Below, one piece after another: positions 4,590-60,983 of a stretch of DNA of 64,000 bases (its first letter is position 1; every line of letters starts with the position of its first letter). Under the pieces are notes generated by a model. It was not told the origin of the DNA, did no database searches, and saw only the letters and a program-made list of their open reading frames with translations. The position numbers and the translations under genes were made by a program. The DNA lies in NCBI GenBank assembly GCA_964344415.1, contig CAYFMS010000001.1, forward strand, positions 317,315 through 381,314. Reading direction: 5' to 3'. Origin of the DNA: an uncultured Gammaproteobacteria bacterium (GTDB taxonomy: Bacteria > Patescibacteriota > Patescibacteriia > UBA9934).

Positions 4590-4740
4590 AGTAAACAAAA
4601 TGGTTTAAAATACAGCTCGGCTTATCCACGCCGTGCTTTTTATTATCCACAGCCCTGTGATAAGGTTTGAATACAAAAGTTGTCTATGCATTTAGGCATT
4701 GAACACTTATTGAGAACAGTTAAGTAATTCATGTATCCAT

Positions 4741-11486: not shown

Positions 11487-11563
11487 GGGCTGGTAGTTCA
11501 ATTGGTTAGAGCACCGCCCTGTCACGGCGGAAGTTGCGGGTTCGAGTCCCGTCCAGCCCGCCA
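11487..11563 (+). tRNA. tRNA-Asp (anticodon GTC) with encoded CCA
   Basis: Acceptor GGGCTGG/CCAGCCC, anticodon loop CTGTCAC, T-arm GGGTTCGAGTCCC. Confidence 0.85.
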
Positions 11564-19839: not shown

Positions 19840-20220
19840 ATGGTGGACCTGGGGAGAATTGAACTCCCGTCTGGTCAGTGCTCGACCAAGAATGTTTTAC
19901 AAGTATATCTTACCTATATACATCTACCGATAAAGGCAAGAGAAAGACGATAGATGTTTCCGCGCAAACCTTTGACATTCACTCGCGGGGCATGAATGAC
20001 GCATCCTGCTATATATAACACCCAGATCGCTTTTGCGCAGGATCAAAAGCTAGGATGGCACTGCACAGTGTTAGGCAGTTGCGAATGCAGGTAGATTCAT
20101 TCGAATCAACCCACGTGAAGAGTTGTTTGCATGTATCTTCTTGTATGTGTTTTTACTGAGAACATACGGCTCAGACTTGGTTCTTGGAAGGTGCTGCTGC
20201 CATCGATTCCTGGCAGGCCC
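19840..20220 (-). ncRNA. ssrA: tmRNA (ssrA)
   Basis: 5' GGGCCUG pairs with 3' CAGGUCC-A-CCA and carries the tRNA-Ala G3·U70 wobble. T-arm is GGGAGUUCAAUUCUCCC. 5' region GGGGCCUGCCAGGAAUCGAUGG resembles the E. coli GGGGCUGAUUCUGGAUUCGACGGG. Lies directly downstream of smpB. Candidate tag ORF is GCA AAC AAC... TAA, giving ANNSSRGLIRMNLPAFATA. Confidence 0.75.
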
Positions 20221-37185: not shown

Positions 37186-37815
37186 TTATATTCTTGAATA
37201 TTTTCGTATAACAGCTCTGACAATTCCTTGAATATTTACATCTCCTTTTACGATAATCGGTTCCATGGTGCTATTTGCTGGCTGGAGTCGAATGAATCCA
37301 GCTTCGCGATAAAAGCGTTTCAGTGTTGCATATGCATTATCGAGAAGTGCGACGACAATATCTCCATTTTTTGGGGAGGGATTTCTTTCTATAACGACAT
37401 AGTCCCCGTTGAAAATGCCATCTTCAATCATGGACCGCCCTCGTACTTGCAGAACATATGAATTGCTTGCACTGACAACAAAGTCGGCTGGAATGGCAAT
37501 GGCTTCATTTTCTTCAATGGCTTCAATAGGTTCTCCCGCTGTAATGAGGCCCGCCAGTGGCAGCATGATGCTCATCGGTGAATGCAGTTCAGCATCAACA
37601 AGTTCTATTGAGCGCGCTTCGCCATCACCGCCCGTTTGTAATACCCCCTTTTCACAAAGTGCCTGAACATGTCCATGAATGGTTGATGGTGAGGATAAAC
37701 CAAGGCCACTCGCAATCTCGCGATAGGAGGGAGTATATCCACATTCACGAATGAAATTCTCAATAAAATCTAGAACTTCCTTCTGTTTTTTTGTTAGGGG
37801 AGGATTATTGTTCAT
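37186..37815 (-). CDS. lexA: LexA repressor
   Basis: N-terminal wHTH, then S24 peptidase with the VRGRSM Ser motif and the Lys of the dyad. Confidence 0.9.
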   Translation of the reverse strand: MNNNPPLTKKQKEVLDFIENFIRECGYTPSYREIASGLGLSSPSTIHGHVQALCEKGVLQTGGDGEARSIELVDAELHSPMSIMLPLAGLITAGEPIEAIEENEAIAIPADFVVSASNSYVLQVRGRSMIEDGIFNGDYVVIERNPSPKNGDIVVALLDNAYATLKRFYREAGFIRLQPANSTMEPIIVKGDVNIQGIVRAVIRKYSRI

Positions 37816-37844
37816 GTTTGTTCGGCTACATCTTTATTATATAA

Positions 37845-37859
37845 GAACAAAAACAGAAC
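37845..37859. promoter_or_regulatory. Candidate LexA operator GAAC-N7-GAAC (equivalent to GTTC-N7-GTTC on the other strand) in the lexA/metK-like divergent region
   Basis: agaacaaaaacagaaca lies 30-44 nt upstream of the lexA start. A second GTTC-N6-GTTC overlaps the lexA start codon (37809-37824). Confidence 0.3.
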
Positions 37860-37921
37860 ACAAGTTTCATTCTGTGGATAACATTTCATTCACGCGGCAT
37901 ACTTTCTTGCGGAAGGAACTT

Positions 37922-38971
37922 ATGTTAAAGTCGAGCCCTAGAACTATGCTGAAAACGACATGCATGCCGCTTGCCGGCCATCCGGATAAAGTGTGCGATC
38001 ACATTGTTGAAACGCTCCTAGATGAGTATTTGAAGCGTGACCAAAAAAGTCGTGTGAATATTCAAGCTCTTGGATCACATGGAATGGTTATGATTGGTGG
38101 TATTGCTGATTCGCGGGCAGATTTTGATGCAGCTGAGATCATTCGTCGTCTTTATAAAGAAATTGGACATGATGATGAAATTGAGCCATTCGTGAATATT
38201 GAGCGCCCAGGGGAAGATATGGCGCGCGTACTCGTAAAGGGTGCGAGTCAAGGAACGGTGATTGTATACGGTTATGCGACGAGTGAGACGCGTGAAATGC
38301 TACCGCGCAGCGTTGTGTATGCACATGATTTAGCTCGGCGTATTGATGATTTGCGTAAAAATGACAGTCAATTTTCTTGGTTAGGAGCTGATGGTTTTGT
38401 GCAGGTGACTATGGATGGCGATAGCCCAAAGCATATTGTTTTGCATGTTCAGCATATGCCAAGCATTGAAACGAGTAATGTGCAGTCCAGCCTTCTTGAG
38501 TCGGCCGTCAATCCTATTTTTGGAAATCATGAGCATGCGAAGATTTATATCAATGCGGCTGGTGAATTTACGCAAGGAGGACTTGCGGCGCATGCGGGTT
38601 CTTCGGGCCGTAAAATCTCATCTAGTTTATATGGTGGATTACTTCCAGCATCTGATGCGAGTTTTTTTGGAAAAGATCCTTGGCATCCAGCAAGATCTGG
38701 AACATATATGGCGCGGCATATTGCCAAGAAACTTACGGCTGACGGTGCAGGAAATGCGCTCGTAAAACTTGTGTATGTTATGGGGCAGCAGGATCCAATT
38801 TTAGTCGAGGCAGTAACGGGCCGAGGTGAAGATATGTCTGAAAAAGTAAAAGCATTTGATTTGCGACCCGAAGCTATTGTTGAACAATTTTCTCTCAATA
38901 AAGCAATGTTCAGGAATTACAGTGCCTATAATATGTTTGCGCGCACCGATGCTCCATGGGAAATGATATAA
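37922..38971 (+). CDS. Divergent S-adenosylmethionine synthetase (MetK) paralog with altered active-site motifs. The start is chosen at MLKSSP, which has a GGAAGG RBS; the ORF track begins at 37751.
   Basis: GHPDKVCDHIVETLLDEY (MetK N-terminal motif) but GASQGT replaces GAGDQG, and SDASFFGKDPWHPARSGTYMARH replaces [22 protein letters not shown]. Confidence 0.65.
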   Translation: MLKSSPRTMLKTTCMPLAGHPDKVCDHIVETLLDEYLKRDQKSRVNIQALGSHGMVMIGGIADSRADFDAAEIIRRLYKEIGHDDEIEPFVNIERPGEDMARVLVKGASQGTVIVYGYATSETREMLPRSVVYAHDLARRIDDLRKNDSQFSWLGADGFVQVTMDGDSPKHIVLHVQHMPSIETSNVQSSLLESAVNPIFGNHEHAKIYINAAGEFTQGGLAAHAGSSGRKISSSLYGGLLPASDASFFGKDPWHPARSGTYMARHIAKKLTADGAGNALVKLVYVMGQQDPILVEAVTGRGEDMSEKVKAFDLRPEAIVEQFSLNKAMFRNYSAYNMFARTDAPWEMI

Positions 38972-51824: not shown

Positions 51825-52889
51825 CTACTCGATCGGTCTCACGAGTCGATGGCCCATAGGGCCGTACCTGTTGCCAATCGGCGTATTGTTGCGTCGGACA
51901 ATGGCCGAGACCTCGTCCGTATCGCCATCCCAGGCTCCGCCACAATCGCGCTTCGCGATCATGTTGCTGTCGGTGTCAGGGGCGATGAAGACGACCTCGT
52001 CGGGTCCGCTTGGATCGACTCGATCCATGTTCTCGTATTGGTACGGATCGTACCCACGAGACCCGTCCCAGACCCATTCCCATTGATTGCCTGTCATGTC
52101 GTGCAGGCCAAGGGCATTGGGCTCGAGCAGTCCGACTTTCTGAGGCCCATCTGGACTGTTTTCGGCGGTCCAGGCGACCTCGGAGAGATCGTTGCTCCCG
52201 GCGAATCGCGTATTCTGCCCAGCATGGGCAGCATAGCGCCACTCGGCCTCTGTCGGAAGGCGATAGCCATTGGCGGACCGATTCCACTCGACGGAAGCGA
52301 ATACCTCCGCGGAGGCATCTTGCCAGTGGGCGTTCACATCCCAGGGTTCATCCTCGTAGAGGCTCTCGATGATGTATGCTCGCTCGAGCCCGTCCCGTTC
52401 GGACATGGCATTCGCGAGAAGTACACCATCCAACCATGACATGGACATCATGGGACAGTCGTCCTCGACGCAGGGCGTATTGAACTTGCTCGAGACGGAA
52501 TTAGTGATTTCCTCACCAAAGACATCTTGGAACAAGCCACGCGTGACCTCGTAGCGCATCATCTCGAATGACTTTGAAATGGTGATGCAAGCCGGCGGGC
52601 CTTCGTCGAGGTCGCAGAACCCGTCGTCTCGTTCCGGCGTGCAACCGATGACGAAACTTCCGGCTGGGACATGAACCCAGTCTGACGGATTGTCGTGATT
52701 TACGCCCATCGTGGTGACGGCGCAATTCGCGACTTCATCCATTTCGACATCGGTCACATCATGGACGGAATCCATAATGTCTCCAGTCGAAAACTCTGCT
52801 TCCGTGATGGACTCTTCCACCACGGAATCCTCTGGCAAGCAGCCCATCAGGGCGACTCCCCAAAAACTCAACAAATAAAAGAACTTCAT
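51825..52889 (-). CDS. Formylglycine-generating-enzyme (FGE/SUMF1) family protein, secreted or lipoprotein (GC-rich island)
   Basis: Signal MKFFYLLSFWGVALMGC. FGE-sulfatase motifs HDMTGNQWEWVWD and RGGAW-like DCGGAWDGD. Confidence 0.7.
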   Translation of the reverse strand: MKFFYLLSFWGVALMGCLPEDSVVEESITEAEFSTGDIMDSVHDVTDVEMDEVANCAVTTMGVNHDNPSDWVHVPAGSFVIGCTPERDDGFCDLDEGPPACITISKSFEMMRYEVTRGLFQDVFGEEITNSVSSKFNTPCVEDDCPMMSMSWLDGVLLANAMSERDGLERAYIIESLYEDEPWDVNAHWQDASAEVFASVEWNRSANGYRLPTEAEWRYAAHAGQNTRFAGSNDLSEVAWTAENSPDGPQKVGLLEPNALGLHDMTGNQWEWVWDGSRGYDPYQYENMDRVDPSGPDEVVFIAPDTDSNMIAKRDCGGAWDGDTDEVSAIVRRNNTPIGNRYGPMGHRLVRPIE

Positions 52890-52962
52890 GTTCCCTCCTT
52901 GCCTGTTTAATACCATGTTTTGCTATAAATGTCAATCCAAAAACTCACGGATCTCACGCCAT

Positions 52963-55995: not shown

Positions 55996-56871
55996 ATGTC
56001 TGACTATTATAGAATTCCTCGAGGAGGAAATTGGAATTATGGAGGGAGAAATTGGAAACTAAGCCGAAGTAAAATTGATTTATTTCAGCAGTGCCCGCGC
56101 TGTTTTTGGCTCGACAATAAAAAAGGGCTAAAAAGGCCACCTGGATATCCTTTTAATATTAACTCGGCTGTTGATAATTTGCTGAAAACGGAATTTGATG
56201 GGCATCGAGCGAATGGTGAGCCTCATCCGCTGATGAAGGAATATGGTTTGTCTGCGGTGCCGGCTCAGCATGAGAAAATCGATACGTGGCGCGAGAATTT
56301 TGAGGGTGTGATTTGTCAGCATGATCCGACGGGGATGACGATTAGTGGGGCGATTGATGATTTGTGGGTGAATGATGCGGGTGAGTATATCGTTGTGGAT
56401 TATAAGGCGACGGCGAAAAGTGAGCCCGTGAAGAGTTTGGATGCGCCTTGGCAGGACGGGTATAAGCGGCAGATGGAGGTGTATCAATGGTTGCTTCGCC
56501 AGAATGGATTGAAAGTTTCTGATACGGGGTATTTTGTGTATTGCACGGGGCGGCCGGATGCGGAGGCATTTGACGGGAAGGTTGAGTTTGATGTGCATTT
56601 AATCCCGTATACGGGTAGTGATGATTGGGTCGAGGATCGGTTGATGGAGATTAAGGCCTGCCTTGAAGTAGATGAAATGCCAGAATCTGGCGCTGATTGT
56701 GATTATTGCAAATACCGCCGCGAGCTCGCGAAAGTTGAAATTTCTTCTGAGCCGGATTTCAGTGCTGGAGATCTTGGCGCGGGCGATAATGCCGTGTTCG
56801 AGGACATGCCTCAGCTCGCCGCAGCGGAAGAAGCCCCTGCAAAAAAGCCAGAACAGGGGAGTTTGCTCTAG
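55996..56871 (+). CDS. Stand-alone Cas4/RecB-like PD-(D/E)xK nuclease with an Fe-S Cys cluster
   Basis: QQCPRCFW, then IDDLWVNDAGEYIVVDYKAT (D-D/E-K) and QMEVYQW, and a C-terminal C-x12-C-x2-C. Confidence 0.6.
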   Translation: MSDYYRIPRGGNWNYGGRNWKLSRSKIDLFQQCPRCFWLDNKKGLKRPPGYPFNINSAVDNLLKTEFDGHRANGEPHPLMKEYGLSAVPAQHEKIDTWRENFEGVICQHDPTGMTISGAIDDLWVNDAGEYIVVDYKATAKSEPVKSLDAPWQDGYKRQMEVYQWLLRQNGLKVSDTGYFVYCTGRPDAEAFDGKVEFDVHLIPYTGSDDWVEDRLMEIKACLEVDEMPESGADCDYCKYRRELAKVEISSEPDFSAGDLGAGDNAVFEDMPQLAAAEEAPAKKPEQGSLL

Positions 56872-56892
56872 TGTGGTACAATGAAAATACAA

Positions 56893-57025
56893 TTGAATAT
56901 ATCAAGAGATAGTTAGGGAACGAGCCCATTGATCTGTCCGCAACCTGCCATTGGTAAGGTGCGAATTCTCGCCCAAAGGGAAAGATAAATTTTAACCACT
57001 CTTTTCCCGGAGTGGATTTTCATTT
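56893..57025 (+). promoter_or_regulatory. SAM-I (S-box) riboswitch with terminator expression platform upstream of metK
   Basis: aUAUCAAGAG..AGGGA..GAGCCCaUUGA..CGCAACC..GGUGCGAAUUCuC..GGAAAGAUaAA matches the S-box consensus blocks. This is followed by ccactc-ttttcccg-gagtgg then attttcattt (terminator). Confidence 0.7.
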
Positions 57026-57027
57026 CT

Positions 57028-57981
57028 ATGAATCAAGAATATTTTACGGCCGAGTCCGTGACGATTGGTCATCCAGACCGTATGTGCGATCAATTTTCAG
57101 ATGCTATTTTAGCGGCATATGTTGCTCAAGATCCAAATGCGCGTGTTGCGGTCGAATGCATGGGAGGGCATGGGAAAGTGTGGGTATGCGGGGAAGTGAC
57201 CTCGAATGCAGAGATTAATATCCCGTCCATTATTCAAAAAACATATCGAGACATTGGTTATAAAGATGAATTGCAAATTGAGGTTCATTTGGTGAAACAG
57301 TCGCCGGATATTGCACGCTGCGTTGATACGGGCGGGGCGGGGGATCAGGGGATTGTGATTGGGTACGCTTGCGATGAAACGCCTGAATTTTTACCGTTAG
57401 AGGCTGCACTTGCTCATCGTTTGACGGATGCGCTCACCGAGGCTCGGGTTTCGGGGCGATTGCCTTATTTGGGTCCAGATGGAAAATCGCAGGTGACGGT
57501 GAATCCTGCGACGGGTCATGTGAAGGCGATTGTTTTGAGCGCGCAGCATGATGCGAGTGTTTCGATTGATCGGGTACGTGCGGATCTTCGCGAGCTTTGT
57601 TTCTCTGTCATCCCGGGCTTGCATGTCCGCTGTAGCTCGCAGAGCGAAAGCGGGACCCGGGATCCAGCGTATTTCATTTCTGAAGATACACAATTCTTCC
57701 TCAATCCCGCCGGTCCATTCATTCAAGGAGGATTCGAGGCAGATACCGGCCTTACGGGCCGAAAGCTTGTTGTAGATTTTTACGGTCCGCGCGTACCAAT
57801 TGGCGGTGGAACAACGCACGGAAAAGACATGACAAAAACCGACCGATCAGGCGCCATGAAAGCAAGAGAAAAAGCGATTGAGATTTTGCAGGAAAAAGGC
57901 GCAAAAGAGGTGACTGTTGTGTATAGCTATGCGATTGGAATTGCGGGTCCGATTGATGAGAGGGTGGTGGTGAATATATAA
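57028..57981 (+). CDS. metK: S-adenosylmethionine synthetase (short, 317 aa; canonical motifs retained)
   Basis: GHPDRMCDQFSDAIL, GAGDQG and GGGTTHGKDMTKTDRSGA. Preceded by the SAM-I riboswitch. Confidence 0.8.
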   Translation: MNQEYFTAESVTIGHPDRMCDQFSDAILAAYVAQDPNARVAVECMGGHGKVWVCGEVTSNAEINIPSIIQKTYRDIGYKDELQIEVHLVKQSPDIARCVDTGGAGDQGIVIGYACDETPEFLPLEAALAHRLTDALTEARVSGRLPYLGPDGKSQVTVNPATGHVKAIVLSAQHDASVSIDRVRADLRELCFSVIPGLHVRCSSQSESGTRDPAYFISEDTQFFLNPAGPFIQGGFEADTGLTGRKLVVDFYGPRVPIGGGTTHGKDMTKTDRSGAMKAREKAIEILQEKGAKEVTVVYSYAIGIAGPIDERVVVNI

Positions 57982-58054: not shown

Positions 58055-59503
58055 ATGAATCAAAATTATCTACTTGTCGAAGAGATTGCTGATGAATTGC
58101 GAGTTAGCAATATGACCGTTTATCGCTATATAAAATCCGGATCACTTCCTGCATATAAGCTTGGAAAAGAGTATCGTATCAAATCAGACGATTTTATAAG
58201 TTTTATGAAAGATGCTCGTACAGTTGGGCAACTTAAATTTATAGATTTGTTTGCCGGATTGGGCGGAACCCGAATAGGATTTGAACAAGCCTGTGTGGAT
58301 CTAGGAATTGAGGCGAAATGCGTTTTTACTTCTGAGATAAAGCCACATGCTGTCGATGCGTATTCAACCAATTTTATCGGTGAGAAGATTTCTGGTGATA
58401 TTACTAAGATCGATTATACTACCTTGCCTGACTTTGATTACCTGTTAGGAGGATTTCCTTGTCAGCCATTTAGCTCTGCCGGTAAAAGGCTGGGTTTTTT
58501 TGATACAAGAGGTACACTTTTTTTTAATATAGAAGAAATATTGCGTGTAAAAAAGCCGGTAGGATTTTTGCTGGAAAACGTTGAAGGGTTGGCTAATCAT
58601 AACCAAGGCAAGACATTACAAGTTATTATAAGTAATTTGTCGGCTCTAGGATATCATACGTCCTGGCGTGTCCTGGACGCAAAAAATCATGGAGTCCCGC
58701 AATCAAGGCGCAGAACCTATATTGTGGGACGGAGAGACTCATCGGTAAATATAAATCAGGCGAACTTCAAGAAGAGGTGTCCTAGAATGAAAGATATTCT
58801 TGAAGATGGGTTGGAGGTTATGAATACAGACTTTACTAAAAAATTACTTCATCACTATTCAGTGTCTGATGTTATTGGGAAATCTATCAAGGATAAGAGG
58901 GGTGGTCCGAGTAATATCCATAGCTGGGATATACATTTAAAGGGGCGTGTCAGTAATGTTCAGAAAAAAATTCTCAATAAGCTTTTACGAGAAAGGCGCA
59001 AGAAGCATTGGGCGGAAAAGAAAGGGATTAAATGGATGGATGGAATGCCACTTACGCTCAACGAGATCCTGACGTTTATTGATTGTAAAAAAGATTTACT
59101 TCAATTGCATCTCGATGATCTTGTTGTAAAGGGATACTTACGACTTGAGTATCCAAAGAAGGTAGTTGAGCAGAAGAATGGAATACAAAAGCGAGAATAC
59201 GATACAGAAAAAGAAAGAGGATATAATATAGTCGCTGGGAAATTAAGTTTCGAAATTAGCAAGATACTGCACCCGGAAGGTATTGCGCCTACACTTGTAG
59301 CTACGGACTCAACAAAGTTGGCTGTGCCCGATGGGTGTGGCGTGCGACGTCTTACTGTGAGAGAGGGACTTCGTTTGTTTGGATTCCCTGAAGATTACAA
59401 GCTAGAGGTCTCATATAGTAAGGCATTTGACTTGCTTGGAAATACCGTAGTGGTGCCGGTTATAAAGGATGTGGCTTCCGTCTTACTTAATTCAGGCAGG
59501 TAG
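58055..59503 (+). CDS. DNA (cytosine-5)-methyltransferase with an N-terminal excisionase/MerR-like HTH
   Basis: HTH LRVSNMTVYRYIKSGSLPAYK. Motif I DLFAGLGG, motif IV GGFPCQPFS, ENV, QSRRRTYIVG and GNTVVVPV. Confidence 0.85.
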   Translation: MNQNYLLVEEIADELRVSNMTVYRYIKSGSLPAYKLGKEYRIKSDDFISFMKDARTVGQLKFIDLFAGLGGTRIGFEQACVDLGIEAKCVFTSEIKPHAVDAYSTNFIGEKISGDITKIDYTTLPDFDYLLGGFPCQPFSSAGKRLGFFDTRGTLFFNIEEILRVKKPVGFLLENVEGLANHNQGKTLQVIISNLSALGYHTSWRVLDAKNHGVPQSRRRTYIVGRRDSSVNINQANFKKRCPRMKDILEDGLEVMNTDFTKKLLHHYSVSDVIGKSIKDKRGGPSNIHSWDIHLKGRVSNVQKKILNKLLRERRKKHWAEKKGIKWMDGMPLTLNEILTFIDCKKDLLQLHLDDLVVKGYLRLEYPKKVVEQKNGIQKREYDTEKERGYNIVAGKLSFEISKILHPEGIAPTLVATDSTKLAVPDGCGVRRLTVREGLRLFGFPEDYKLEVSYSKAFDLLGNTVVVPVIKDVASVLLNSGR

Positions 59504-60268
59504 TTACAGGACTCTCCCTGTCCACTCTTTGTAATTTTCTGATACGATACTAAACCAAGTGTCTGAGTCTATTTCATCTGACAAATGACTATAATTCTGT
59601 ATTACTTTTTCCAGTGCTAAAACAAAATCTTTTCTTTGTGCAAAAGGCTTGAACTTTGAATTATCAGAAAACCACGAAGCCGGTCTAATATTGATGATCT
59701 TTCCTTGCTTCCTCTGAACCTTTAGTGGAAGGTTATTGCTGGGACAACAGAGTTCCCATACTTTTTTGAGCCAAAGATTTCGAATTTTGATGGTTGAGTT
59801 TGTGAGCTCGTATGCGAATATAAGGTAGTCTGAATCTAGTTTATATGCCTCATGCATCAAGGTTCTGGCATAGGCGTCAAAATTGGCGATGTCAAAGTTA
59901 GCCGATGCGGTGTGGTCGAATGCTTTGACTTCAAGTAAATCCTCGTGGTCACTGATCGACAGGAAGAAATCAGGTGCTTCTTGACTATTGGGATTTGGCC
60001 TATGGTATATCTTATGTTTCACCATCCAATTTTTTAGCCATTCTTCAAGGATGTTGCCCATCGCACTTTTTTCGTTCATTTTGAAGCGGACATCCAAGAG
60101 CTTCATCTGAATCACGCCTTCAGCGCCAATGATTCCTTGAGAAAGAAGTTCGGAATAGATTGAGTTGGCGCGCATACTGATATTCATATTAACTAAATGA
60201 ATCTTACACATAAAAGATGTCAATTGCAAAGAAGTTGGTGCAATATAGGGGTATATGATTATATGCAA
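59504..60268 (-). CDS. Putative type II restriction endonuclease, convergent partner of the methyltransferase. Start uncertain; M20, M28 and M32 are alternatives.
   Basis: Convergent and adjacent to the C5-methyltransferase. ISDHEDLLEVKAF resembles a PD-(D/E)xK core. Confidence 0.45.
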   Translation of the reverse strand: MHIIIYPYIAPTSLQLTSFMCKIHLVNMNISMRANSIYSELLSQGIIGAEGVIQMKLLDVRFKMNEKSAMGNILEEWLKNWMVKHKIYHRPNPNSQEAPDFFLSISDHEDLLEVKAFDHTASANFDIANFDAYARTLMHEAYKLDSDYLIFAYELTNSTIKIRNLWLKKVWELCCPSNNLPLKVQRKQGKIINIRPASWFSDNSKFKPFAQRKDFVLALEKVIQNYSHLSDEIDSDTWFSIVSENYKEWTGRVL

Positions 60269-60308
60269 TCATTGGCGTCTAAGCTCTGGTCGGGTAAGGT
60301 TGTAGAGT

Positions 60309-60983
60309 ATGAGGTTCTCGAAGCGATATTATAGACTATTTCTAACATATGAAGATTGGGTAGATTTACTCAAAAAATCACTATTAAAACGTGCTTATAA
60401 ATCTGGGATTGGAATTAATATTTTGATATCTGATAAAGATGTCTTTAAGGCATTTCGGGATTCATATTGCAAGGAATTATCTTGTAAGAGCACAGACTTT
60501 GCTGAATGCTTTTTAGCTTTTGAATCTCTGTATAAATTTTATGACGAAGATGTAGAGATAGGCTTTGAGGCTAAATCAAGTTTTAAACTAAATGAATCAG
60601 TTATTGATGATTTGGATGCACTCTTTTCATTTTGTAGAAAGGATACTGATGTAGATGCCATTGTGAGGCATCCGAATGGTGTGGTTCGAGATTTTCAGTT
60701 TAAAAGTTTTGTAGAATCGCCCGATAAACTGACATCAGAGAATCTAGCTGAGTATATCTGCGAAAAGGTAAGCGGTGGATACTTGCGTGTAAATTGGCTC
60801 GTTAATCTAGTGGTGCATGGTGGAAGTACGGATGAGGTCGATTTTGGTGAGTTGAGTAGATTGATCAAGAACTACTTGTCAGGAAAGAGAGAAGTCTTAA
60901 TTATTTTTAATGAGAATAATGAGTTTAATACCATGATAAGGGTGTATCCAGATTTGGCTATGCTTCGTGTCGAGAGGTCTTGA
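60309..60983 (+). CDS. Hypothetical protein adjacent to the R-M pair
   Basis: 224-aa ORF, no family recognised. Confidence 0.45.
   Translation: MRFSKRYYRLFLTYEDWVDLLKKSLLKRAYKSGIGINILISDKDVFKAFRDSYCKELSCKSTDFAECFLAFESLYKFYDEDVEIGFEAKSSFKLNESVIDDLDALFSFCRKDTDVDAIVRHPNGVVRDFQFKSFVESPDKLTSENLAEYICEKVSGGYLRVNWLVNLVVHGGSTDEVDFGELSRLIKNYLSGKREVLIIFNENNEFNTMIRVYPDLAMLRVERS

What the first reader, a model, noticed from the sequence alone, without database searches (positions are those of the whole stretch)
56893..57981. SAM-I riboswitch controls the short MetK, while a second, motif-divergent MetK paralog sits next to lexA
The gene at 57028, preceded by an S-box aptamer and terminator, is almost certainly the functional SAM synthetase despite being only 317 aa. 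The paralog at 37922-38971 keeps the GHPDKVCD N-terminal motif, but GAGDQG has become GASQGT and the GGGAFSGKD phosphate-binding loop has become SDASFFGKD. It may be catalytically impaired or repurposed. It is divergently arranged with lexA and shares its putative operator region.
Basis: partly seen in the sequence, partly recalled or inferred. Interest (0 to 1): 0.6.

Follow-up and report, generated by a model that had tools for sequence, protein, structure and literature searches.

The report
Riboswitch-gated mini-MetK plus degenerate MetK relative
A small candidate-phyla-radiation bacterium carries two SAM-synthetase-like genes: a shortened but catalytically intact one behind a SAM-sensing riboswitch and next to a restriction-modification system, and one beside lexA that belongs to a lineage-wide family that kept the enzyme fold but lost the residues needed to make SAM.

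Summary
Rfam places a SAM-I (S-box) aptamer at 56896-56991 (61.6 bits, cut-off 44.4). A terminator hairpin follows at 56996-57015, then the ATG of a 317-aa MetK at 57028. That protein keeps every catalytic residue but lacks the last 55-70 residues. It belongs to a Patescibacteria clade of short MATs; all 9 distinct loci checked carry the riboswitch. It is not a recent paralogue. It is the positional descendant of the lineage's ancestral metK (metK-PPIase synteny) and belongs to a family found in at least 351 species genomes, mostly Uhrbacteria. The family folds as a MAT (pLDDT 93.7) and is under strong purifying selection (dN/dS 0.02-0.08). It has replaced the methionine-, Mg2+- and K+-binding residues E42, E55, Q98, D118, D238 and D271. 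It is therefore very unlikely to make SAM. The lexA neighbourhood is ancestral synteny: the GAAC-repeat operator stays with lexA when the two genes are separated. Unexpectedly, the C-terminally truncated MetKs lie beside restriction-modification genes in 5 of 7 informative loci, against 0 of 158 control loci. Whether genomes carrying the degenerate form usually hold another MAT could not be determined.

The parts
56874..56882 (+). Candidate extended -10 promoter (TGgTACAAT) for the riboswitch-metK transcript
   Evidence: Read directly from the sequence. The consensus scan found no full sigma-70 site. This assignment is an inference only.
56896..56991 (+). SAM-I (S-box) riboswitch aptamer
   Evidence: RF00162 at 61.6 bits against a gathering score of 44.4, full model 1-108. 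The same family was found upstream of all other A-clade MAT genes checked.
56996..57027 (+). Expression platform: terminator hairpin 56996-57015 (7 bp, -8.9 kcal/mol) plus U-rich tail 57016-57027. A possible antiterminator pairs GGGAAAGA (56977-56984) with UCUUUUCCC (57000-57008).
   Evidence: Terminator scan. MFE folds show aptamer plus terminator. The hairpin and U-run are conserved in four orthologous leaders. The antiterminator is weaker (-6.8 kcal/mol) and is inferred.
57028..57981 (+). Short MetK ('A', 317 aa): all catalytic residues kept, C-terminal 55-70 residues missing, 16-aa insert at about residues 196-212
   Evidence: Pfam N/M/C domains. TIGR01034 at 281 bits, below the 309 cut-off. 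Residue table. Truncation at E. coli position about 315 is shared with P0122 and P0123. AlphaFold pLDDT 80.6, low at 198-206 and 240-271.
58055..59503 (+). HTH-fused C5 cytosine DNA methyltransferase, 73 nt downstream of metK-A on the same strand, with no terminator detected between them
   Evidence: PF00145 at 272 bits plus HTH_17. PADLOC type II MTase. GC 0.40 against 0.45 for the window. The terminator scan found none after 57981.
59504..60268 (-). NgoBV-like type II restriction endonuclease, convergent with the methylase
   Evidence: PF09564 RE_NgoBV at 158.9 bits. PADLOC REase_II. GC 0.39.
55996..56871 (+). PD-(D/E)XK / Cas4-like nuclease directly upstream of the riboswitch
   Evidence: PF12705 at 52 bits. 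PADLOC Cas4 models, E = 2e-10.
37946..38971 (+). Degenerate MetK-like protein ('B', 341 aa; alternative start at 37922): MAT fold kept, methionine-, Mg2+- and K+-binding residues replaced
   Evidence: Pfam domains. TIGR01034 at 225 bits, below the 309 cut-off. Residue tables. AlphaFold pLDDT 93.7. Foldseek finds MAT structures at TM 0.93. Family in at least 351 species genomes. dN/dS values.
37186..37815 (-). lexA
   Evidence: PF01726 plus PF00717. 64-87% identical LexA lies next to B-type genes in 67 of 80 related loci.
37819..37881 (.). lexA promoter/operator module. It contains TGTTCG (37819-37824), -10 TATAAT on the lexA strand (37836-37841), two GAAC half-sites 11 bp apart (37845-37848 and 37856-37859), -35-like TTGTGT on the lexA strand (37858-37863), and TGTGGATAA (37873-37881), the reverse complement of the DnaA-box consensus.
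   Evidence: Conserved in 46 adjacent-gene intergenic regions. The module keeps a fixed distance from lexA even where B is 0.5-8 kb away; TGTGGATAA with at most 1 mismatch occurs in 64 of 67 loci. Coordinates were checked.

Best explanation
The window comes from a Uhrbacteria-like Patescibacteria (CPR) genome.

(1) Riboswitch and gene A. Bases 56896-57027 are a SAM-I riboswitch with a transcription-terminator platform. When SAM is abundant the aptamer closes, the 56996-57015 hairpin forms, and transcription stops 12 nt before the ATG. When SAM is scarce the 3' side of P4/P1 can pair with the 5' arm and loop of the terminator. RNA polymerase then reads into metK-A and probably on into the adjacent C5 DNA-methyltransferase gene. 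The read-through into the methyltransferase is inferred. MetK-A (317 aa) is the active SAM synthetase. It keeps all residues for ATP, Mg2+, K+ and methionine binding. It belongs to a CPR clade of short MATs that always carries this riboswitch, although its subclade has lost the outer C-terminal helices.

(2) Gene B. The lexA-adjacent gene is the in-place descendant of the lineage's original metK. It belongs to an order-wide family that keeps the MAT fold and most triphosphate- and adenine-contacting residues: H14, D16, D163, F230, R244, K245 and K265, plus K165 in most members. The family has replaced the residues that hold methionine and the metal ions: E42, E55, Q98, D118, D238 and D271. It no longer makes SAM and persists, under strong purifying selection, as a ligand-binding or otherwise repurposed pseudoenzyme. 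The window copy is one of the most eroded members: it also has K165F, K269H and GG to SD.

(3) lexA. The divergent lexA arrangement is inherited synteny. The GAAC-repeat operator is lexA's own.
For: Riboswitch:
- RF00162 scores 61.6 bits.
- The terminator is predicted.
- Aptamer and hairpin are conserved in 4 close leaders. The aptamer is present upstream of every A-clade MAT gene checked: 10 fetched loci, 9 distinct. It is absent from 4 canonical and 2 B loci.

Gene A:
- It matches E. coli at 21 of 22 tabulated active-site positions; the exception is the conservative K17R. The same sites are invariant across 12 truncated relatives.

Gene B:
- Family-wide substitutions across 120 proteins and 80 loci.
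- The conserved-but-different positions V10P, T11L, T57D, Q98P, D118G, Q119T, T242S and V270P all lie beside catalytic residues in the sequence.
- Confident MAT fold.
- dN/dS is 0.02-0.08 within the family and about 0.18 for window versus L001.
- A monophyletic long-stem clade, sister to canonical CPR MATs.
- metK-PPIase synteny is shared with the fully canonical L079 and L087.
- The window copy deviates at 14 of 123 family-conserved columns; the median is 3.

Co-occurrence and lexA:
- A and B co-occur in a second genome, JBDRFP01.
- The lexA module stays with lexA.
Against: - There are no biochemical data for either protein.
- A fails the metK equivalog cut-off. It lacks about 55-70 C-terminal residues. 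Its catalytic 240-271 segment is modelled at pLDDT below 50 as a monomer.
- The predicted antiterminator is weaker than the terminator.
- I could not find out whether the hundreds of B-bearing genomes have another MAT. If they do not, either they import SAM or B still makes it.
- The retained basic residues are compatible with some residual chemistry.
Confidence: 0.6

Rival explanations
1. B is still the housekeeping SAM synthetase of Uhrbacteria, with a remodelled active site. A is an accessory enzyme that travels with restriction-modification genes.
For: - B occupies the ancestral metK locus.
- It is present in at least 351 species genomes.
- It is under very strong purifying selection.
- No second MAT lies within 10 kb of any of 80 B loci.
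- Close relatives of A are rare: only 3 at 68-75% identity.
- 'Intermediate' members keep E55, Q98, D118, D238 and D271 and may be active.
Against: - Core-B members, the window copy included, lack six residues that are invariant in all 240 canonical CPR MATs examined and in E. coli. These include the Mg2+ ligand D271 and all four methionine contacts.
- From my own knowledge of the E. coli MetK mutagenesis literature (Taylor and Markham; not retrieved here), single substitutions at such sites cut activity by orders of magnitude.
- The window copy additionally lacks K165 and K269.
Confidence: 0.12
2. A and B work together as a heteromer. The truncated but catalytically complete A is stabilised or regulated by the full-length but catalytically dead B. 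This would resemble enzyme-prozyme pairs such as trypanosome AdoMetDC and its prozyme.
For: - Both proteins are aberrant in complementary ways: A lacks the C-terminus and B lacks catalytic residues.
- They co-occur in at least two genomes.
- From established MAT structures, active sites lie at the dimer interface.
- A's P-loop segment is poorly modelled on its own.
Against: - B is far more widespread than A.
- The two genes are 19 kb apart and not co-regulated.
- The residues B retains and lacks do not separate cleanly into the two half-sites of a composite active site. This is my reading from recalled structures and was not tested.
- No multimer model could be run.
Confidence: 0.1
3. B is a DNA-damage (SOS) gene. 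It is co-repressed with lexA through the shared intergenic operator, and its new function relates to DNA repair or replication.
For: - The divergent lexA-B arrangement occurs in 67 of 80 loci, and 46 have a gap under 450 bp.
- Conserved GAAC repeats and a DnaA-box-like TGTGGATAA lie between the genes.
- In the window these sites lie 65-100 nt upstream of B.
Against: - The module keeps a fixed distance from lexA, and its -10 and -35 read on the lexA strand.
- It stays with lexA when B is 0.5-8 kb away, in about 20 loci.
- The adjacency also holds for 'intermediate' members with near-intact active sites, so it predates the functional change.
Confidence: 0.12
4. The 317-aa gene is a truncated, non-functional remnant, and the organism imports SAM.
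For: The missing C-terminus, the sub-threshold equivalog score and the low-confidence P-loop model.
Against: - The truncation is shared by orthologues that are 68-75% identical, with intact ORFs.
- All catalytic residues are invariant across 12 truncated proteins.
- The riboswitch is conserved in front of all of them.
- There is no downstream coding remnant: only 73 nt separate it from the next gene.
Confidence: 0.05

Closest known systems
S-box (SAM-I riboswitch) leader of metK in Firmicutes such as Bacillus subtilis
   Same: Same RNA family (RF00162). Same layout of aptamer, intrinsic terminator and metK. Same logic: SAM feedback on its own synthetase.
   Different: The host is a CPR/Patescibacteria genome. 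The regulated enzyme is a C-terminally truncated MAT. The transcript probably continues into a restriction-modification methyltransferase (a 19-nt gap to hsdM in L091; 73 nt in the window). The terminator is short (7 bp) and the antiterminator is only weakly predicted.
Canonical bacterial methionine adenosyltransferase (E. coli MetK, TIGR01034; PDB 1RG9, 7LOO and others)
   Same: Both window proteins have the three-domain MAT architecture. B's model superposes on MAT structures at TM 0.93. A keeps the full catalytic residue set.
   Different: A ends at E. coli residue about 315 and has GGGTTHGKD in place of GGGAFSGKD. B lacks E42, E55, Q98, D118, K165, D238, K269 and D271 and the GAGDQG and GGG loops. 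Both score below the equivalog cut-off.
Catalytically dead enzyme paralogues (pseudoenzymes), for example the trypanosome AdoMetDC prozyme (PMC5201418, PMC6221367)
   Same: A conserved, selected homologue of a SAM-pathway enzyme that has lost catalytic residues but keeps the fold.
   Different: No partner or activating role has been shown for B. B is the positional orthologue of the enzyme, not a tandem duplicate. In most genomes that carry B, no active counterpart has yet been identified.
Autoregulated lexA promoter with GAAC-type (Cheo-box-like) LexA sites; Patescibacteria SOS network (Sanchez-Osuna et al. 2017, cited in PMC8565304 ref. 9; not readable here)
   Same: lexA is preceded by conserved GAAC/GTTC half-sites that overlap its -10 and -35 elements.
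   Different: The half-sites are arranged as two pairs of 11-bp-spaced direct repeats flanking the -10, not as the classic GAAC-N4-GTTC palindrome. I recall that palindrome from memory. A DnaA-box-like nonamer accompanies them.

Membership tests
SAM-I riboswitch (Rfam RF00162) | Covariance-model score at or above the curated gathering threshold over the full four-helix model | tested here: met
   61.6 bits against 44.4, model positions 1-108.
SAM-I riboswitch (Rfam RF00162) | An expression platform that can switch between terminator and antiterminator | tested here: inconclusive
   The terminator is clearly predicted and conserved. The antiterminator is only an 8-bp, -6.8 kcal/mol alternative, with partial covariation in L083.
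SAM-I riboswitch (Rfam RF00162) | Binds SAM | not testable with these tools
   Needs in-line probing or ITC.
Methionine adenosyltransferase (MetK, TIGR01034 equivalog): short protein A | Score at or above the NCBIfam equivalog cut-off (309.4 bits) | tested here: not met
   281.3 bits. The match covers profile positions 2-306 of 377.
Methionine adenosyltransferase (MetK): short protein A | Catalytic and ligand residues H14, D16, E42, E55, Q98, D118, D163, K165, F230, D238, R244, K245, K265, K269 and D271, plus the GAGDQG and GGG loops | tested here: met
   All are present; only K17 changes, to R.
Methionine adenosyltransferase (MetK): short protein A | Complete C-terminal domain | tested here: not met
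   The protein ends at E. coli position about 315. Pfam S-AdoMet_synt_C is matched at profile positions 2-78 of 138.
Methionine adenosyltransferase (MetK): lexA-adjacent protein B | Score at or above the NCBIfam equivalog cut-off | tested here: not met
   224.9 bits against 309.4. NCBI names relatives only 'methionine adenosyltransferase domain-containing protein'.
Methionine adenosyltransferase (MetK): lexA-adjacent protein B | Catalytic and ligand residue set | tested here: not met
   E42Q, E55I, Q98P, D118G, K165F, D238H, K269H, D271A, and GGG changed to SDA. Six of these losses are family-wide.
Methionine adenosyltransferase (MetK): lexA-adjacent protein B | Three-domain MAT fold | tested here: met
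   pLDDT 93.7, pTM 0.91. Foldseek top hits are all MATs, E = 2e-38, TM 0.93.
Methionine adenosyltransferase (both proteins) | Makes SAM from ATP and methionine | not testable with these tools
   Needs an enzyme assay or complementation.
LexA repressor | N-terminal LexA DNA-binding domain plus S24 autopeptidase domain | tested here: met
   PF01726 at 68 bits and PF00717 at 105 bits.
Type II restriction-modification system (neighbour of A) | Adjacent DNA methyltransferase and restriction endonuclease genes | tested here: met
   PF00145 at 272 bits. PF09564 RE_NgoBV at 159 bits. PADLOC MTase_II and REase_II.

The most novel reading that the evidence does not exclude
In Uhrbacteria-like CPR bacteria the ancestral metK has been converted, step by step, into a conserved non-catalytic or re-specialised protein. 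The series runs from canonical, through 'intermediate' and core-B, to hyper-degenerate. SAM synthesis in some lineages is instead supplied by a laterally moving, SAM-riboswitch-gated, C-terminally truncated mini-MetK. That mini-MetK travels with, and is probably co-transcribed with, restriction-modification systems. An R-M cassette would thus bring its own SAM supply into SAM-poor hosts.
Probability: 0.25. Interest if true: 0.75.

Novelty: new variant of a known kind. Interest (0 to 1): 0.55.

Why it matters
A SAM-I riboswitch in front of metK is textbook, so that half of the finding is ordinary. Two things are not.

First, a whole order of CPR bacteria keeps, under strong selection, a MetK-fold protein whose methionine and metal sites are gone. 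Either these organisms depend on imported SAM, or the fold has been put to a new use. The clade contains a graded natural series from intact enzyme to pseudoenzyme, which could be studied biochemically.

Second, truncated riboswitch-controlled MetKs sit beside unrelated R-M systems (C5 type II, type I, Eco47II, Bsp6I). This points to a link between local SAM supply and DNA-methylation-based defence. I could not find such a link described in the papers searched.

Tried and rejected
- Co-occurrence of B with another MAT. I tried matching 'longest contig' lengths between the B list and the two canonical lists. Only the window's own 768,188-bp contig matched. The lists are capped at 120 entries, so absence proves nothing. 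The only cross-genome link found was JBDRFP01.
- Canonical MATs labelled 'Uhrbacteria' (P0301, P0309) lie in unrelated contexts. Whether those genomes also carry B is unknown.
- Metagenome scan with the truncated-MetK alignment. It was useful only as a negative control for R-M adjacency.
- Viral scan. Many phage contigs encode MetK, some only 311-330 aa long, but all keep the C-terminus. A phage origin for the truncation is therefore not supported.
- PADLOC has no model matching either MetK.
- Literature searches for CPR MATs, MetK pseudoenzymes, Uhrbacteria SAM metabolism and MetK-R-M linkage found nothing specific. The Patescibacteria SOS paper (Sanchez-Osuna 2017) is not held.
- The classic GAAC-N4-GTTC palindrome is not present in the lexA-B spacer. 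The half-sites have a different geometry.
- DnaA-box matches are not enriched in the window as a whole: 19 observed against about 17 expected. Only the cross-genome conservation of the 37873 site is meaningful.
Full report
**What is at the coordinates**

A scan of the whole window against Rfam gives three hits above curated thresholds: a tmRNA, a tRNA, and a SAM-I riboswitch (RF00162) at 56896-56991 on the plus strand. The riboswitch scores 61.6 bits against a gathering score of 44.4 and matches the full model. Four bases later a 7-bp G+C-rich hairpin (56996-57015) is followed by ATTTTCATTTCT. The ATG of a 317-aa ORF follows at 57028. The minimum-free-energy fold of the leader shows the aptamer helices plus this hairpin. 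An extended -10 element, TGgTACAAT, lies at 56874-56882 and is the likely promoter (inference).

The family consensus and the database entry P0001 start at 37946 rather than 37922.

**The two proteins**

Both carry the three Pfam S-AdoMet-synthetase domains. Both hit every solved MAT. Both fall below NCBI's metK equivalog cut-off of 309.4 bits: 281.3 for the short protein (A) and 224.9 for the lexA-adjacent one (B).

Against E. coli MetK (literature numbering):
- A keeps H14, D16, E42, E55, Q98, GAGDQG (D118), D163, K165, F230, D238, R244, K245, GGG, K265, K269 and D271. It stops at about residue 315, so it lacks the last 55-70 residues. It also has a 16-residue insert.
- B is full length but has E42Q, E55I, Q98P, GAGDQG changed to GASQGT, K165F, D238H, GGGAFSG changed to SDASFFG, K269H and D271A.

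**Organism and families**

The closest database proteins come from Patescibacteria. For B they are mostly 'Candidatus Uhrbacteria', and NCBI calls them only 'methionine adenosyltransferase domain-containing protein'. Both window proteins are recorded on a 768,188-bp contig.

B has more than 100 relatives at 47-63% identity. A has three close relatives (68-75%) and then a large set of CPR MATs at about 50%. A scan of one genome per species found B-type genes in 351 genomes, and 80 loci were fetched.

**B is a conserved, remodelled descendant of the ancestral metK**

- *Residue losses are family-wide.* Across 120 family proteins E42 is Q or K, E55 is V, T or I, and Q98 is P. GAGDQG has become GAQGT, so D118 is G and Q119 is T. 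D238 is N, G or S, and D271 is A, S or G. In contrast H14, D16, K17, D163, K165, F230, R244, K245, K265 and D266 are mostly kept.
- *The changes sit around the active site.* Positions conserved in both B and 240 canonical CPR MATs but carrying different residues are V10P, T11L, T57D, Q98P, D118G, Q119T, T242S and V270P. All lie beside catalytic residues in the sequence.
- *The 80 loci show a graded series*. L079 is fully canonical. An 'intermediate' group keeps E55, Q98, D118, D238 and often D271, but has E42N, xTDN in place of GAGDQG, and GDx in place of GGG. The core group has lost the methionine and metal ligands. The window copy, L001, L037 and L074 have additionally lost K165 and, in L001, L037 and L074, also R244 or K245.
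- *The clade is coherent.* In an NJ tree the whole B clade is monophyletic on a long stem, sister to the canonical roughly 345-aa CPR MATs. A falls in a separate clade with about 336-aa MATs of Komeilibacteria and others.
- *B occupies the original metK locus.* B loci share the order lexA - B - (small ORFs) - PPIase. The canonical L079 and L087 genes also sit directly upstream of the PPIase gene, and in L087 the order is queA-metK-PPIase.
- *The fold is intact.* AlphaFold gives pLDDT 93.7 and pTM 0.91. Foldseek returns only MAT structures, at TM 0.93.
- *Selection is strong.* dN/dS is 0.02-0.08 for pairs with dS of about 1.0-1.9. It is about 0.18 for the window copy against its nearest relative, where dS is near saturation.
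- *The window copy is unusually eroded.* It departs from the family consensus at 14 of 123 highly conserved columns, against a median of 3.

Taken together, B is not a decaying pseudogene and not a normal MAT. The pattern is clear: the acidic methionine- and metal-binding residues are gone, while the basic triphosphate-binding and adenine-stacking residues are kept. That pattern points to a protein that still binds a nucleotide or polyphosphate-like ligand but does not make SAM. This last step is inference.

**A is the plausible enzyme, and the riboswitch belongs to its clade**

RF00162 is found upstream of every A-clade gene examined: L081, L082 and L083, L089, L091, L092 and L093, and L174/L175. 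It is absent upstream of four canonical CPR MATs and two B genes. The hairpin CCACUC...GGAGUGG plus U-run is conserved in the four closest leaders.

The truncation at about residue 315 is shared with P0122 and P0123. Less extreme truncations occur in a dozen relatives, and all of them keep every catalytic residue together with a modified GGG(A/T)T(A/H)GKDMTK loop.

Some caution is needed. As a monomer, A's model has pLDDT 80.6, with residues 240-271 below 50.

**lexA**

LexA is the divergent neighbour in 67 of 80 loci, and the gap is under 450 bp in 46 of them. The spacer holds a conserved module: GTTCG-N6-GTTCG, then TATnAT, then CGAAC-N6-CGAAC-GCAAG, and about 8-12 nt further on TGTGGATAA. 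The -10 and -35 elements read on the lexA strand.

The module stays 20-40 nt from lexA in the roughly 20 loci where B lies 0.5-8 kb away. It is therefore lexA's own promoter and operator. Where the genes abut, as in the window, LexA could influence B, but nothing requires it. The adjacency also predates B's loss of catalytic residues, because it holds for intermediate members.

**An unplanned finding: truncated MetKs sit beside restriction-modification genes**

The R-M neighbours of the truncated MetKs are:
- Window: an HTH-fused C5 methyltransferase (58055-59503) and an NgoBV-like endonuclease (59504-60268, minus strand). Their GC is 0.35-0.40, against 0.45 for the window and 0.50 for metK-A.
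- L082: an IS200-type transposase, then metK, then an Eco47II endonuclease.
- L091: metK, then 19 nt later hsdM and hsdS. No terminator lies between them.
- The P0130 locus: DUF2779, an N6-MTase/S fusion and a helicase.
- L174: a Bsp6I endonuclease, a LexA-fused C5 methylase and Vsr.

L092 has a toxin-antitoxin pair and DUF2779 but no R-M. L093 shows nothing recognisable. L081 and L083 end too soon to judge.

A tblastn panel of these MTase and REase proteins found no C5-MTase or HsdM-type hit in 1.29 Mb around 84 B or canonical loci. It also found none in 0.60 Mb around 74 full-length MAT genes from metagenomes. That is 5 of 7 against 0 of 158, Fisher p of about 2e-8.

Three caveats apply. The panel was built from the R-M genes found next to the truncated MetKs. 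The controls are partly conserved housekeeping neighbourhoods. The sample is small.

**What could not be settled**

A and B co-occur in the window genome and in MAG JBDRFP01 (A on contig 27; B on contig 37). Whether the other B-bearing genomes have any intact MAT could not be tested, because only 10-kb flanks are retrievable and the homologue lists are capped. This one fact decides between 'SAM auxotrophs with a repurposed MetK' and 'extra copy with a new job'. It also bears on the rival that B is still a MAT.

**Verdict**

The riboswitch-metK unit is a known kind of regulation. The degenerate MetK family and the R-M-linked truncated MetKs are new variants worth a targeted follow-up.

Noticed in passing
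window 37873-37881; same position in L001-L080: TGTGGATAA, the exact reverse complement of the DnaA-box consensus TTATCCACA, lies about 27 nt beyond the first GAAC half-site upstream of lexA. It is perfect in 39 and within one mismatch in 64 of 67 Uhrbacteria loci. It stays with lexA when the neighbouring gene differs. This suggests DnaA, or another factor, acts on the lexA promoter.
   Followed up: partly
window 37819-37864 and L001-L080 intergenic regions: The presumed LexA sites are four GAAC/GTTC half-sites: two 11-bp-spaced direct-repeat pairs in opposite orientation flanking the lexA -10. They do not form the classic GAAC-N4-GTTC palindrome.
   Followed up: partly
L174 3418-4995 (-) and L175 2582-4159 (-): A 525-aa protein fuses a complete LexA (DNA-binding plus S24 peptidase domains, 42-45% identical to Uhrbacteria LexA) to a C5 DNA methyltransferase. 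It lies next to a Bsp6I endonuclease and Vsr. It could be a methylase that is cleavable on DNA damage or that regulates itself.
   Followed up: no
window 58055-60983: A low-GC (0.35-0.40) island holds the HTH-C5 methylase, an NgoBV-like endonuclease and a 224-aa ORF with no family match. It is wedged between metK-A and the rplJ-rplL operon and looks recently acquired.
   Followed up: partly
L091 3866-8344: A SAM-I riboswitch, a truncated metK, hsdM and hsdS lie on one strand. Only 19 nt separate metK from hsdM, and no terminator is predicted between them. This looks like a type I R-M methylase operon placed under a SAM riboswitch.
   Followed up: partly
L054-L080 (for example L057, L067, L073): 'Intermediate' Uhrbacteria MetKs keep the methionine and Mg2+ ligands but have E42N (the K+ site), xTDN in place of GAGDQG, and GDK in place of GGG. 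They may be active MATs with altered cation or loop chemistry.
   Followed up: no
window 51825-52916 (-): A 363-aa ORF has GC 0.54-0.58, well above the window's 0.45. By eye it contains a formylglycine-generating-enzyme-like motif (RLPTEAEWRYAA). This is probably horizontally acquired.
   Followed up: no
window 19841-20220 (-) and 11487-11560 (+): A tmRNA (86 bits) and a tRNA are the only other Rfam hits above threshold in the window.
   Followed up: no
window 4622-4651: Two DnaA-box matches lie 12 nt apart: TTATCCACG and a perfect TTATCCACA. They could mark a dnaA or oriC region.
   Followed up: no
viral loci L094-L173: At least 479 IMG/VR viral contigs encode MetK homologues 41-49% identical to protein A. 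About a third are compact (311-330 aa) yet keep the C-terminus.
   Followed up: partly
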